Program-made: the position numbers
NCBI RefSeq assembly: GCF_001447785.1
Contig: NW_015162578.1
Span: 38,050 to 102,049, forward strand
DNA: 64,000 nucleotides
DNA from: Gekko japonicus
Lineage: Eukaryota
Direction of reading: 5' to 3'
Part shown: one piece after another, positions 15,001 to 18,000 of the stretch
How positions within the stretch are numbered: position 1 is the first letter of the stretch
Layout: each line of letters opens with the position of its first letter

Positions 15001-18000
15001 CAGTGCCAGCAGATTCCTGTTTATTTTTTGTGGCAATTGCTAATTCTGTCAGTTGACAGTGAATTTATGTCTCGCCACTAGATAATGTATCTGACTTGAA
15101 AATTCTCCCTCTCGATAGAATAATTCATTCAGTGAGCCAACCAGTTAAAAGCGGAGACTGTTATGGTTGATTATTCAGAACGTTTGACTACAATTCTCCT
15201 CTTTGATTTTCTTCTCTTATTTACAAAAATAGGGAATGATAATATATGTAGCCATTCACACTTTGAAAAACACAAGGGGTTGGATCCAGCCAGCCTTTTC
15301 TCTTCATCTTGCCCAATAACTCTTTTTCTAGAGCCACCATCCTATATAGTTGTTTTTTTTAAAAAAAAAAAATCCCCTGGAGACAGGGTAGCTTTATTAA
15401 ATTTTGTTACACCTACGTGACTACAGAAGGGAAAAAAAAAAAGGGAAAATGGGAAAAAAGGGAGGGTGGGGGAGGGAAAAAAATAACAAACTAAAATAAC
15501 AAACCCCGGGATACAGACAGTACAAAAGAAAAGAAACCCACACTATAACTAAAAACCCAAGAAAGGAAGGTCATTAACAGTTAGTATACAGTTAGTCATA
15601 AAAATTAAAGCTTTCGTTTGAGTCAACGAATTAGGGAGATTAATGAGTCCATTTTAGTAAATGTCTAATTTCTTCTCAGTATGCACAAAGACTTCATCCA
15701 GTTCATTCATAAATCTTTTAGGTCATAAGAGCTACTTGGCAACTCTTAGCCGCAAATCATATGCCTCTCTGGCCTTGCCTCCTTCTGCTCCTATTAGGTC
15801 TCCGTCCGTCTTGTCCAGGCTGGCTGCCTGGCCCATCCTATATAGTTTTTGTCCATGAAGGTCCTGTTATCCCTAACAGAGCCTGTTTGGGTGTTCAAAG
15901 GAGATCTTTCCTTCCCTTTTCACTAGCAGAAGAGCTAGCTGGATCCAATCAAAAGTCAAATGCAAATACTGTATTTATTGGACACAATTAAGAAGGGATT
16001 TTTTTGATGGGGTTGTGTTGTATTTTTCACACTGCAGATTACAGTGGATTACAGTTTTAGCATTCATCACTCTATAATATTATATTGGAACAAATACAGT
16101 TCCTTACATAGTTGCATTATACATACATACATTCGACTTTATTGCATGGGCCTGATGAATGCTTACATTTACTATTTACAGTTAGATGAAGTAGCTATTT
16201 ATCCCAGTCCTAAGAAAACATATTGAAGATGCAAGTTTCAAAAGCTTTCCAATTTCCTCTTTAATAATTTTTCATTCTCCCCATACATTCCAGATGCTGC
16301 AACATGGAAAGGGGAAACATGACATCTGTCACTGAAATCCTTTTGCTTGGGTTTGTATATGACCCTGCTTTGGAGATTGTCCTTTTTCTGGTTTTCCTTC
16401 TTGTGTATATAGTGACAGTGCTTGGAAATGCTCTCATCATTCTACTCATCACCATTGATTCTCGCCTCCACTCCCCCATGTATTTCTTCCTCAGCAATTT
16501 GTCCTTCATTGAGATATTCATGACAACCTGTGTAGTGCCAAAAATGCTAGCCAATTTCTTGACTAAGAGGAAAACCATTTCATTTGTTGGTTGCCGCATC
16601 CAGTCATACTTTTATTTCTTCATGGGCTCCACTGAGTTCATCCTGTTTGCTGCTATGTCCTTTGATCGCTATGTAGCCATCTGTTTCCCACTTAGGTACC
16701 CTACCCTCATGACTGGGACTGTTTGTGTTAAGATGGTGATAGGCTCTTGGATTGGTGGTTTCATGTCTGTGTTCTTGTCAACAGTTGTGAAGGCTAGGTT
16801 GCCTTACTGTGGACCTAATGTCATCAACCACTACTTCTGTGACAGTGCCCCTTTGCTACATCTTGCCTGTACGGACATAAGACTTATTGAATTGATTGAC
16901 TTCATTGGTTCTTTACTTCTGTTGCTTGGTTCCCTTTCATTCACTGCTACTTCTTATCTATATATCTAATAGCCAACTTGCCCCATTCGTTCTGCTCGCT
17001 AAATCAGCACGGAGGGGGCAGGTGGGGGGGAGGGGGAGGTTTGTGCACACGTGGGCCAGTCCCCACGTGTGCACAAAAATGCAAAAAGTTAAAAAAAATT
17101 TCGGGGGGATGTTTAAATCCCCCCGAAAGTGCAAGAGCGTCTCCTGCGCATGCGCAGGAGACGCTCTGCAACGCCGCCACCGCTGCCGCCGCCTCGGACC
17201 AGCTGGCGGGCTGGCGGGCGACGGGGGGGAGGAAGCCGGGCCTCGCCGCCGCCGCTGCCTCCCCGGAGCCGGCTGGCCAGCCAGCCAGCCAGCCGGCCGG
17301 CCCCACAAATTCTCGCCTCCACTCCCCCATGTATTTCTTCCTCAGCAATTTGTCCTTCATTGAGATATTCATGACAACCTGTAGTGCCAAAAATGCTAGC
17401 CAATTTCTTGACAAAGAGGAAAACCATTTCATTTGTTGGTTGCCGCATCCAGTCATACTTTTATTTCTTCATGGGCTCCACTGAGTTCATCCTGTTTGCT
17501 GCTATGTCCTTTGACCGCTATGTAGCCATCTGTTTCCCACTTAGGTACCCTACCCTCATGACTGGGACTGTTTGTGTTAAGATGGTGATAGGCTCTTGGA
17601 TTGGTGGTTTCATGTCTGTGTTCTTGTCAACAGTTGTGAAGGCTAGGTTGCCTTACTGTGGACCTAATGTCATCAACCACTACTTCTGTGACAGTGCCCC
17701 TTTGCTACATCTTGCCTGTACAGACATAAGACTTATTGAATTGATTGACTTCATTGGTTCTTTACTTCTGTTGCTTGGTTCCCTTTCATTCACTGCTACT
17801 TCTTATGTTTACATAATTTCAACCATTCTCAAGATTCCTTCTGCTCAGGGTAGGAAGAAGGCCTTTGCCACTTGTGCCTCTCACTTCACTGTTGTCTCCA
17901 TGGGCTATGGAATCTCCATTTTTGTGTATGTCAGGCCATCCCAGACTGACATCATGAGCATAAACAAAGCATTAGCTGTTTTCTCCGGCATCCTGACACC

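What the first reader, a model, noticed from the sequence alone, without database searches (positions are those of the whole stretch)
16458..17806. Helitron-like 5' end flanked by a ~500-bp duplication of OR coding sequence
Seen: the OR breaks at tctta|t (16956). A 352-bp CpG-rich insert starting TCTATATATCTAATAG follows, then the gene restarts 500 bp upstream (attctcgcc). The copies differ by ~3 substitutions and a 2-bp deletion, so the event is recent and not a simple assembly echo. Known: Helitrons join a 5'-TC end to a host A at AT sites without TSD. Inference: an aborted insertion resolved by template switching back into the host gene, which is a plausible snapshot of gene-fragment capture.
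Basis: partly seen in the sequence, partly recalled or inferred. Interest (0 to 1): 0.75.

Follow-up and report, generated by a model that had tools for sequence, protein, structure and literature searches.

The report
Tandem duplication inside gecko smell-receptor gene
A gecko smell-receptor gene carries an internal repeat of about 500 bases with a 352-base foreign, GC-rich filler at the joint; this looks like a copying slip during DNA replication or an assembly error, not a Helitron transposon caught in the act.

Summary
Copy A (16458-16956) and copy B (17309-17806) match at 494 of 499 columns: 3 substitutions and one 2-nt gap. Between them lies a 352-nt insert with 65% GC and CpG o/e 0.81. 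The gene is an OR6M1-like receptor. It appears to lie on a 161-kb scaffold of the Illumina/SOAPdenovo Gekko japonicus draft. The RefSeq protein skips 849 nt and is an intact 315-aa receptor.

The Helitron reading rests only on A|TC.
- The insert ends ACAA next to A, not CTRR next to T.
- A 499-nt flanking repeat is not a Helitron trait.
- The first ~42 nt of the insert align in register with receptor sequence (23 of 43, p about 0.0002-0.003).
- No other copy lies in the window.
- Family membership could not be tested, because no gecko genome or repeat library was reachable.

All 3 substitutions are synonymous (P 0.011-0.022 if neutral).

My best reading (0.42) is a recent replication or repair template switch, a "cycle of templated insertion". 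A close rival (0.36) is an assembly artefact. The published PacBio data for this species would settle it. Interest is low.

The parts
16304..16957 (+). 5' part of an OR6M1-like olfactory receptor gene (codons 1-218), open from ATG 16304. Two stop codons (TAA TAG, 16973-16978 by my count) follow in frame inside the insert.
   Evidence: ORF 16304..16969. Best relatives are gecko OR6M1-like receptors at 88-92% identity. Residues 1-221 of P0125 match 16304-16966 at 99.5%.
16458..16956 (+). Copy A of the duplicated segment (499 nt). At the 3 differences that could be polarised it carries the state shared with both paralogs, and it is in frame.
16957..16998 (+). First ~42 nt of the insert. It is receptor-like in register with the native sequence that should follow the break (23 of 43 identical, including a 13-mer with 12 matches). 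It has in-frame stops.
   Evidence: 23/43 against a null of 10.9 +/- 2.9, reached by 1 of 5000 random window positions; among 5881 positions in the window's receptor genes, 3 of the 4 best scores are the homologous site; global alignment z = 3.7 for 45 nt and nothing beyond ~100 nt; 23/43 lies within the 20-29/43 that distant receptors of the window show at this site.
16957..17308 (+). The 352-nt insert (filler). It is CpG-island-like (GC 65%, CpG o/e 0.81), strongly self-complementary and unique in the window.
   Evidence: for composition and for the absence of another copy (best foreign hit 16 nt, E 0.77). for the fold: -116 kcal/mol against -76.3 +/- 4.7 in 100 shuffles. Searches gave no informative relative.
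17040..17077 (.). Hairpin 1: perfect 16-bp arms (17040-17055 and 17062-17077) around a 6-nt loop. Each arm carries a CACGTG.
17099..17128 (.). Hairpin 2: perfect 12-bp arms around a 6-nt loop, next to an A/T run. It was scored as terminator-like on the minus strand, but at no more than the chance rate.
   Evidence: 1 found against 0.9 +/- 1.0 expected.
17134..17167 (.). Perfect 34-nt palindrome with TGCGCATGCGCA at its centre (17145-17156). That motif fits the NRF1 site consensus as I recall it.
   Evidence: 34 of 34 self-complementary. (motif scan).
17268..17297 (.). A 10-bp G+C stem inside a (CCAG)n-like stretch, ending 11 nt before the 3' end of the insert. The insert ends ...CACAA.
17309..17806 (+). 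Copy B of the duplicated segment (498 nt). It carries the derived 2-nt deletion (near 17380, frame-shifting) and 2 derived substitutions. One further difference could not be polarised.
17807..18100 (+). 3' part of the receptor gene (codons 219-315 plus stop), present once.
   Evidence: ORF 17393..18100. P0125 residues 77-315 match 17381-18097 at 100%.

Best explanation
This is an intragenic direct duplication in an OR6M1-like olfactory receptor gene of a gecko, apparently Gekko japonicus. Start-to-start spacing is 851 nt, or 849 nt after the 2-nt deletion. A 352-nt piece of unrelated CpG-island-like DNA sits at the joint.

The layout is host, then foreign template, then host again 499 nt upstream. 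A replication- or repair-based template switch leaves this topology (FoSTeS/MMBIR-type, called a 'cycle of templated insertion' in cancer genomes). In that process a nascent strand leaves the gene at codon 218, copies 352 nt elsewhere, and re-anneals upstream so that 499 nt are copied twice.

The donor probably begins inside a distant receptor pseudogene at the homologous Ser-Tyr codons, which would explain the first ~42 receptor-like nucleotides. It then runs into a GC-rich, hairpin-rich element.

The event interrupts the gene, because stops follow the break. It is very recent and possibly heterozygous. On that reading, the few differences between the assembled copies are allelic rather than post-event decay.

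Shown: the topology, the composition of the filler, and the receptor-like start of the filler. Inferred: that the structure exists in the animal, where the donor lies, and the switching mechanism.
For: - Topology: 499/498-nt direct copies flank a 352-nt non-receptor insert.
- The filler has the look of real genomic DNA: GC 65%, CpG o/e 0.81, three perfect palindromes, fold z = -8.5.
- No N gap separates the copies. Gaps between the copies are listed as a hallmark of false duplications (PMC9516828).
- The filler starts in register with receptor sequence at about the identity that distant receptors show there. This fits a switch guided by a short conserved motif between receptor genes.
- The rest of the gene is undamaged: the RefSeq model that skips 849 nt is a full 315-aa receptor with 7tm_4 at E 1.8e-50. 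So any event is recent.
Against: - No read data or second assembly could be consulted, so the structure is not shown to exist in the animal.
- The scaffold appears to come from an Illumina-only SOAPdenovo/SSPACE draft with contig N50 29.6 kb. Near-identical 499-nt repeats are hard to place in such an assembly.
- All 3 substitutions between the copies are synonymous (P 0.011-0.022 under neutrality). That needs the extra assumption of heterozygosity or an exchange between alleles.
- The donor was not found: no other copy lies in the 64 kb.
- Microhomology is only 1 nt at the left junction and none is measurable at the right junction.
- The receptor-like start rests on about 43 nt, and one non-homologous position among 5881 scored as high.
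- Local short templated snippets are not enriched: 22 exact matches of >=8 nt against 15.5 +/- 4.7 in shuffles.
Confidence: 0.42

Rival explanations
1. Assembly artefact. The animal has one uninterrupted copy of the gene, or the two junctions belong to different alleles or paralogs. The short-read assembler, scaffolder or gap filler placed two haplotype or paralog versions of the same 499 nt in tandem and bridged them with GC-rich sequence that belongs elsewhere.
For: - The window's paralogs share a 161,329-bp contig with a named Gekko japonicus RefSeq protein.
- That protein is encoded by this very gene when 849 nt are skipped.
- The 2015 assembly was Illumina HiSeq2000 with SOAPdenovo and SSPACE (PMC4673495), with contig N50 29,574 and 191,500 scaffolds (PMC10776941).
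- N runs of odd lengths (13 and 56 nt, one beside an (ATT)n run) fit estimated gaps.
- The differences between the copies look allelic: 3 of 3 substitutions are synonymous, plus a 2-nt slip in a TGTGT run.
- Dropping the insert and copy B restores a perfect 315-aa receptor.
- False duplications made up 3.7-15.9% of the older assemblies studied, mostly from divergent haplotypes, and 7-24% of them lay on the same scaffold (PMC9516828).
Against: - No N gap lies between the copies, although gaps between copies are a listed hallmark.
- Two clean junctions to a complex, structured 352-nt sequence would each need supporting reads or a chimeric path.
- The filler has no match to anything else in the window that could have been mis-threaded.
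- It is the only near-tandem duplication in the 64 kb.
- Read depth and read pairs could not be examined.
Confidence: 0.36
2. The 5' end of a Helitron joined canonically (host A to TC) at the AT of codon 218. The reaction aborted, and replication switched from inside the element back to the gene 499 nt upstream. A variant is a complete 352-nt non-autonomous Helitron-like element with an atypical 3' end.
For: - The junction reads A|TC at an AT dinucleotide in an A+T-rich context.
- Helraiser joins its 5'-TC to A at AT sites (PMC4778049).
- A 10-bp stem ends 11 nt before the insert's 3' end, and the Helraiser palindrome lies 11 nt upstream of its 3' end.
- De novo, non-CTAG 3' ends occur experimentally.
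- The insert is rich in palindromes.
Against: - ATC is a 3-letter context (1.5% of window trinucleotides), and the T may belong to the gene.
- The first ~42 nt are receptor-like in register, so 16957 is probably not the end of a foreign element.
- The 3' end is ACAA followed by A, not CTRR followed by T. CTRR occurs only at 16966, 16999, 17203, 17211 and 17273.
- The terminal stem lies in (CCAG)n-like low-complexity sequence.
- There are 0 further matches to the first 24 nt with up to 3 mismatches in 64 kb.
- None of 49 non-receptor ORFs of >=100 aa has a Rep or helicase domain.
- 'Helitron' occurs 0 times in the main text of either G. japonicus genome paper.
Confidence: 0.08
3. Insertion of a retroelement or other mobile-element fragment with an exceptionally long (499-nt) target-site duplication. 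This would come from two nicks 499 nt apart on opposite strands that were filled in after insertion. The element's interior may have collapsed in the assembly.
For: Direct repeats flanking an insert are the classic form of a target-site duplication. Young mobile elements in this window are G+C- and CpG-rich (28-30 kb and 48-52 kb), as the insert is. That long target-site duplications occur with LINE insertion is recalled, not checked here.
Against: - There is no poly(A), no microsatellite tail and no terminal inverted or direct repeats at either end.
- There is no similarity to the mobile elements of the window.
- Pfam, Rfam and protein searches of the insert are blank.
- 499 nt is far beyond usual target-site duplications (recalled).
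Confidence: 0.05

Closest known systems
Cycles of templated insertions, and replication-based template switching (FoSTeS/MMBIR)
   Same: A copied foreign template is strung into a locus, and the path returns to the host upstream so that a host segment is replicated twice. Templates under 1 kb occur (PMC7025897, passages).
   Different: These were described in somatic cancer genomes. The germline names FoSTeS and MMBIR are recalled; I saw only a search listing for them. Here the donor is unknown, measurable microhomology is 0-1 nt, the host segment is only 499 nt, and the existence of the structure in the animal is unverified.
Heterotype (haplotype) false duplication in draft assemblies
   Same: Two near-identical copies lie on one scaffold of what appears to be a non-phased short-read draft. 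Their differences look allelic.
   Different: There is no gap between the copies. Instead there is a structured 352-nt unique sequence with clean junctions. Depth and read-pair criteria could not be tested.
Helitron (rolling-circle) transposons, e.g. Helibat/Helraiser
   Same: TC follows a host A at an AT site. The insert holds palindromes, one of which ends 11 nt from the 3' end.
   Different: There is no CTRR end, no T flank, a 499-nt flanking repeat where none is expected, a receptor-like first 42 nt, and no family evidence. No reference Helitron termini were available in any tool for comparison.
Target-site duplication of a mobile-element insertion
   Same: The layout is direct repeat, insert, direct repeat.
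   Different: The repeat is 499 nt, and the insert shows no element termini, tail or coding remnant.

Membership tests
Helitron | 5' terminal TC joined to a host A of an AT target (PMC4778049, PMC5876387) | tested here: inconclusive
   The letters fit...CTTCTTA|TCTATAT. But the T is shared with the native sequence, ATC makes up 1.5% of trinucleotides, and the next ~42 nt are receptor-like in register.
Helitron | 3' terminal CTRR/CTAG joined to a host T | tested here: not met
The insert ends ...CCCCACAA and is followed by A at 17309. CTRR occurs only at 16966, 16999, 17203, 17211 and 17273.
Helitron | Palindrome/hairpin about 10-12 nt upstream of the 3' end | tested here: inconclusive
   A 10-bp G+C stem at 17268-17297 ends 11 nt before the end. 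It lies in (CCAG)n-like low-complexity sequence and is not followed by CTRR.
Helitron | No target-site duplication | tested here: not met
   A 499/498-nt direct repeat flanks the insert. [quoted passage not shown]
Helitron | Member of a multi-copy family sharing both termini | not testable with these tools
   No gecko genome or repeat library is reachable. Within the 64 kb there are 0 other copies.
Helitron | Rep/helicase ORF (autonomous members only) | tested here: not met
   None of 49 non-receptor stop-to-stop ORFs of >=100 aa hits a Rep or helicase family in Pfam. Of the 70 such ORFs listed, 21 were left out of that scan: the frames overlapping receptor genes, several overlapping frames within the mobile-element blocks at 28-29 kb and 48-52 kb, and the two that overlap an N run. 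Non-autonomous elements lack this ORF anyway.
Cycle of templated insertion / template-switch duplication | A host segment is re-replicated on either side of the inserted template | tested here: met
   The definition is in PMC7025897.
Cycle of templated insertion / template-switch duplication | The insert is a copy of a template that still exists elsewhere in the genome | not testable with these tools
   It is not in the window, and no eukaryotic genome collection is available.
Cycle of templated insertion / template-switch duplication | Short microhomology at the junctions (recalled as typical) | tested here: inconclusive
   There is 1 nt (T) at the left junction and 0 nt measurable at the right. 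The donor flanks are unknown.
Heterotype false duplication | A gap (Ns) between the duplicated pair on one scaffold | tested here: not met
   There is no N within 16304-18100. The only N runs are 6622-6634 and 62286-62341. The criterion is from PMC9516828.
Heterotype false duplication | Haplotype-type differences between the copies | tested here: inconclusive
   The copies show 3 synonymous substitutions and one 2-nt slip. This fits alleles, but n = 3.
Heterotype false duplication | Half read depth and discordant read pairs | not testable with these tools
   No reads are available.
Olfactory receptor (7tm_4) | Match to the Pfam olfactory receptor model over its full length | tested here: met
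   P0125, the RefSeq model of this gene, hits PF13853 at E 1.8e-50 over profile positions 1-277 of 280. The two halves of the gene match it at 99.5% and 100%.
CpG island (criteria recalled: >200 nt, GC >50%, o/e >0.6) | Composition | tested here: met
   352 nt, GC 0.648, o/e 0.81.

The most novel reading that the evidence does not exclude
The structure is real and is a trapped rolling-circle (Helitron-type) integration. The single-stranded 5' end was ligated canonically to the A of an AT site. Replication then ran off the element and restarted 499 nt upstream in the host gene, which placed host coding sequence directly downstream of transposon sequence. That would be a natural intermediate of gene-fragment capture. 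It would also show that Helitron insertion can produce long flanking duplications.
Probability: 0.05. Interest if true: 0.75.

Novelty: new member of a known kind. Interest (0 to 1): 0.2.

Why it matters
If real, this is one more young, possibly segregating null allele of an olfactory receptor in a gecko. It would also be a small germline example of a duplication with a templated filler. That is useful as an example but not surprising.

The practical value is a caution. In this draft, an otherwise intronless receptor gene is annotated with an 849-nt 'intron' that hides a duplication. Counts of intact and pseudogenised receptors, and any dating from the divergence of the two copies, depend on whether such structures are real.

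Only the Helitron reading would bear on an open question, namely how Helitrons capture gene fragments. The evidence here does not favour it.

Tried and rejected
**RNA and protein searches of the insert**
- Rfam on 16000-18300 at E up to 10 gave 15 matches. All were far below their gathering scores (best 25.5 bits against 56), so no known RNA family fits, including ribozymes and small RNAs.
- Protein-level search of the insert in three open frames was used as a proxy for 'is this sequence anywhere else'. Frame +0: none of 1827 candidates reached E <= 0.001. Frame -2: none of 261. Frame -0 against 1.84 billion representatives: 2 hits, both giant proteins (3926 and 5698 aa) matched in 15 and 11 stretches at 34% identity. 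I read those as low-complexity matches and did not follow them. The other three frames contain stops and were not searched.

**Contamination by bacterial, plasmid or phage DNA** (prompted by a terminator-like hairpin)
- Plasmids: 1 record, a 64-nt match at 76.6%, E 7e-3.
- Phages: none.
- Exact 32-nt and 30-nt stretches in 185,579 prokaryotic genomes: 0 and 0.
- The terminator-like count was 1 against 0.9 +/- 1.0 expected.
- Contamination rejected.

**Junction tests**
- A filler built as a patchwork of short local templated snippets: 22 exact matches of >=8 nt within 15.5-19 kb against 15.5 +/- 4.7 in shuffles. Not supported.
- In-register similarity at the right-hand junction: 15 of 43 against 9.7 +/- 3.0, p 0.06. 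Not significant.
- Gene conversion from the two close paralogs as the source of copy B's variants: only 1 of the 3 substitutions (C at 16666) is present in a paralog. Rejected.

**Database look-ups**
- Exact look-up of the junction-spanning ORFs (16304-16966 plus strand, 17007-17456 minus strand) found neither in the collection. This gives no independent support for the junctions and no evidence against them.

**Not possible or not done**
They may bear on the artefact question.
- I did not build or search a joined version of the gene. Its halves were searched or compared separately, and the frame continuity was worked out from coordinates.
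Full report
**What is there**

Reading 15800-18600 and searching for repeats confirm the anatomy.
- An open frame starts at ATG 16304 and runs as an olfactory receptor to 16956.
- 352 nt of unrelated sequence follow (16957-17308).
- At 17309 the receptor sequence resumes at the equivalent of 16458 and runs to the stop at 18100.

A global alignment of copy A (16458-16956, 499 nt) with copy B (17309-17806, 498 nt) shows 494 of 499 identical columns. There are three substitutions and one 2-nt gap in a TGTGT run. 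The T at 16957 is also the next native base, so the left junction is ambiguous by one nucleotide.

The insert has GC 0.648 and CpG observed/expected 0.81, against 0.42 and 0.29 for the window. This is the only pair of direct repeats of >=35 nt at >=90% identity lying within 4 kb of each other in the 64 kb.

**Context**

The window is an olfactory receptor cluster. ATG-started ORFs of 311-318 aa with receptor sequence lie at 3793-4746 (minus strand), 35699-36646, 43097-44053, 56070-57011 and 62637-63572. The two at 35.7 and 43.1 kb are close paralogs of the gene in question (83-91% nucleotide identity).

The N-terminal 217 residues found 4417 proteins at E <= 1e-30 among 4969 candidates. The best named hits are all geckos: Heteronotia binoei 91-92%, Euleptes europaea 88-89%, Paroedura picta 89%.

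An exact look-up placed the two paralogs on a 161,329-bp contig. In the same cluster, on a contig of the same length, is a named RefSeq protein, 'olfactory receptor 6M1-like [Gekko japonicus]' (P0125, 315 aa).
- tblastn of P0125 against the window gives residues 1-221 = 16304-16966 (99.5%) and residues 77-315 = 17381-18097 (100%).
- So the annotated protein is this gene read with 849 nt skipped.
- It is a complete receptor (PF13853, E 1.8e-50).
- By coordinates, 16955 and 17807 are both codon starts of the same frame. Copy A plus the single-copy 3' part is therefore open.
- The route through copy B is frame-shifted by the 2-nt deletion.
- I did not build or search the joined sequence. The halves were treated separately, and the joined reading rests on the database protein and on arithmetic.

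The passages I read say the following about the assemblies.
- The 2015 G. japonicus assembly was made from Illumina HiSeq2000 reads with SOAPdenovo and SSPACE (PMC4673495).
- Version 1.1 has contig N50 29,574, scaffold N50 707,733 and 191,500 scaffolds (PMC10776941).
- A PacBio/Hi-C assembly also exists (PMC10776941).

The window's N runs of 13 and 56 nt, one beside an (ATT)n run, fit such a draft. That the window belongs to that draft is an inference.

**The insert**

It folds far better than shuffles: -116 kcal/mol against -76.3 +/- 4.7, with 0 of 100 shuffles as stable. It holds these structures:
- a hairpin with perfect 16-bp arms (17040-17077), each arm carrying CACGTG;
- a hairpin with perfect 12-bp arms (17099-17128);
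- a perfect 34-nt palindrome (17134-17167) centred on TGCGCATGCGCA;
- a 10-bp G+C stem (17268-17297) ending 11 nt before the insert's end.

That CACGTG is an E-box, that the palindrome core fits the NRF1 site, and that the composition meets CpG-island criteria are recalled, not tested.

Nothing related lies elsewhere in the window. The best foreign hit is 16 nt at E 0.77, and the first 24 nt have 0 further matches with up to 3 mismatches. All other searches were blank or uninformative:
- Rfam;
- plasmids and phages;
- two exact scans of prokaryotic genomes;
- three translated frames against the protein collections;
- Pfam on the ORFs that cross the insert.

No collection of eukaryotic genomes or repeat library is available here. 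Whether the 352 nt belong to a repeat family is the key question, and it stayed unchecked.

**An unexpected detail at the left junction**

At zero offset and without gaps, the first 43 nt of the insert match the native sequence that should follow the break at 23 positions.
- Random window positions give 10.9 +/- 2.9, and 1 of 5000 reached 23.
- A 13-mer at the same offset matches at 12 of 13.
- Among all 5881 positions in the window's receptor genes, the mean is 11.5 +/- 2.8 and the maximum is 24.
- Three of the four best positions are the homologous site in the two paralogs and in this gene. One non-homologous position also reaches 23.
- A gapped global alignment gives z = 3.7 for 45 nt and z = 2.7 for 100 nt. 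It gives nothing beyond that (z = 0.5 at 150 nt).
- 23 of 43 falls within the 20-29 of 43 that truly homologous but distant receptors of this window show at this site.
- The right-hand junction shows no such signal (15 of 43 against 9.7 +/- 3.0, p 0.06).

I therefore read 16957-16998 as probably a fragment of a distant, decayed receptor gene, since it has in-frame stops, joined at the homologous Ser-Tyr codons. The truly foreign GC-rich part would begin near 16999. The evidence is about 43 nt, so this stays a probable reading and not a firm one.

**The differences between the copies**

I used the two paralogs as outgroups. Copy B carries the derived state for the 2-nt deletion and for two substitutions. 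The third substitution is ambiguous.

All three substitutions fall on third codon positions and are synonymous. The expected synonymous share of random changes in this segment is 0.22-0.28, so P(3 of 3) is 0.011-0.022. With n = 3 this is only suggestive. It points to differences that arose in working genes, meaning alleles or paralogs, rather than decay after the duplication.

That does not follow. The same pattern is expected if the assembler mixed two haplotypes, or if a very young heterozygous duplication was assembled together with the intact allele.

**Helitron test**

The passages I read give these defining features: conserved 5'-TC and CTAG-3' ends, a palindrome 11 nt upstream of the 3' end, 5'-TC joined to A and 3' end joined to T at AT sites, and no target-site duplication (PMC4778049; PMC5876387).
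- Met only formally: TC after A.
- Not met: the 3' tetranucleotide (ACAA) and the 3' flank (A).
- Not met: absence of a flanking duplication.
- Inconclusive: a stem 11 nt from the end, which lies in (CCAG)n-like sequence.
- Against: the receptor-like first 42 nt.
- Not testable here: family membership.

No Rep or helicase domain was found in any of the 49 non-receptor ORFs of >=100 aa that I scanned. These were 49 of the 70 listed. The 21 left out were receptor-overlapping frames, several overlapping frames in the mobile-element blocks, and two that overlap Ns.

A search for 'Helitron' with 'gecko' returned 14 papers, of which 13 were listed and I saw only the listing. None is about gecko Helitron families by title. 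The word occurs 0 times in the main text of either G. japonicus genome paper, and their supplements were not available.

Its sole positive evidence is a three-letter context, and one observation speaks against it.

**Most likely mechanism**

The topology is host, foreign template, then host again upstream. [quoted passage not shown] It corresponds to germline template-switch models (FoSTeS/MMBIR; names recalled, listing only).

I rank a real, recent and possibly heterozygous event of this kind first, at 0.42. An assembly artefact follows closely at 0.36.
- For the artefact: the nature of the draft, the allelic look of the differences, the intact gene once 849 nt are skipped, and the high base rate of false duplications in older assemblies (3.7-15.9% of sequence, PMC9516828).
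- Against the artefact: no gap between the copies, which that paper lists as a hallmark, and two clean junctions to a complex unique sequence.

Helitron involvement gets 0.08. A mobile-element insertion with a 499-nt target-site duplication gets 0.05. The remainder is unassigned.

**Verdict**

The structure is a known kind of rearrangement or a known kind of assembly error, in an ordinary gene family. Interest is low (0.2). The published long-read data for this species would decide between the readings, as set out under decisive next steps.

Noticed in passing
window 16957-17806 (with P0125): The RefSeq protein for this gene (315 aa) can only be obtained by skipping 849 nt, namely the insert plus one copy of the repeat. 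Receptor genes of this class normally have a single coding exon (recalled). The annotation thus hides the duplication behind an apparent intron and counts the gene as intact.
   Followed up: partly
window 47726-52451: An LTR retrotransposon lies on the minus strand. Its 278-nt terminal repeats are 93.9% identical (47726-48003 and 52175-52451). It has ORFs with reverse transcriptase, RNase H and integrase domains, broken into several frames. The block is G+C- and CpG-rich (GC 0.58-0.60, o/e 0.70-0.72).
   Followed up: partly
window 28001-29249: A GDSL/SGNH-hydrolase-like ORF (28635-29249 plus strand, E 4e-9) lies beside a weak tyrosine-recombinase-type match (Phage_int_SAM_1, 28001-28399 minus strand, 19.8 bits, below the 22.3 cut-off) in a CpG-rich block. 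It may be a fragment of a tyrosine-recombinase retroelement (DIRS/Ngaro-like; that link is recalled).
   Followed up: no
window 30788-38203 and 39662-45075: A segmental duplication of about 7 kb carries the two close receptor paralogs (35699-36646 and 43097-44053). Identity is 92% over the genes and 70-92% in the flanks. Both genes are intact and both are in the public protein collection.
   Followed up: partly
window 6622-6634 and 62286-62341: There are two N runs of 13 and 56 nt. The second directly follows a long (ATT)n run. They were left as they are, and their odd lengths suggest estimated gap sizes of a short-read scaffold.
   Followed up: no
window 16529-16533 and about 17380: The 2-nt difference between the copies lies in a TGTGT run, a typical slippage site. 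It is the only frame-breaking change in either copy.
   Followed up: yes
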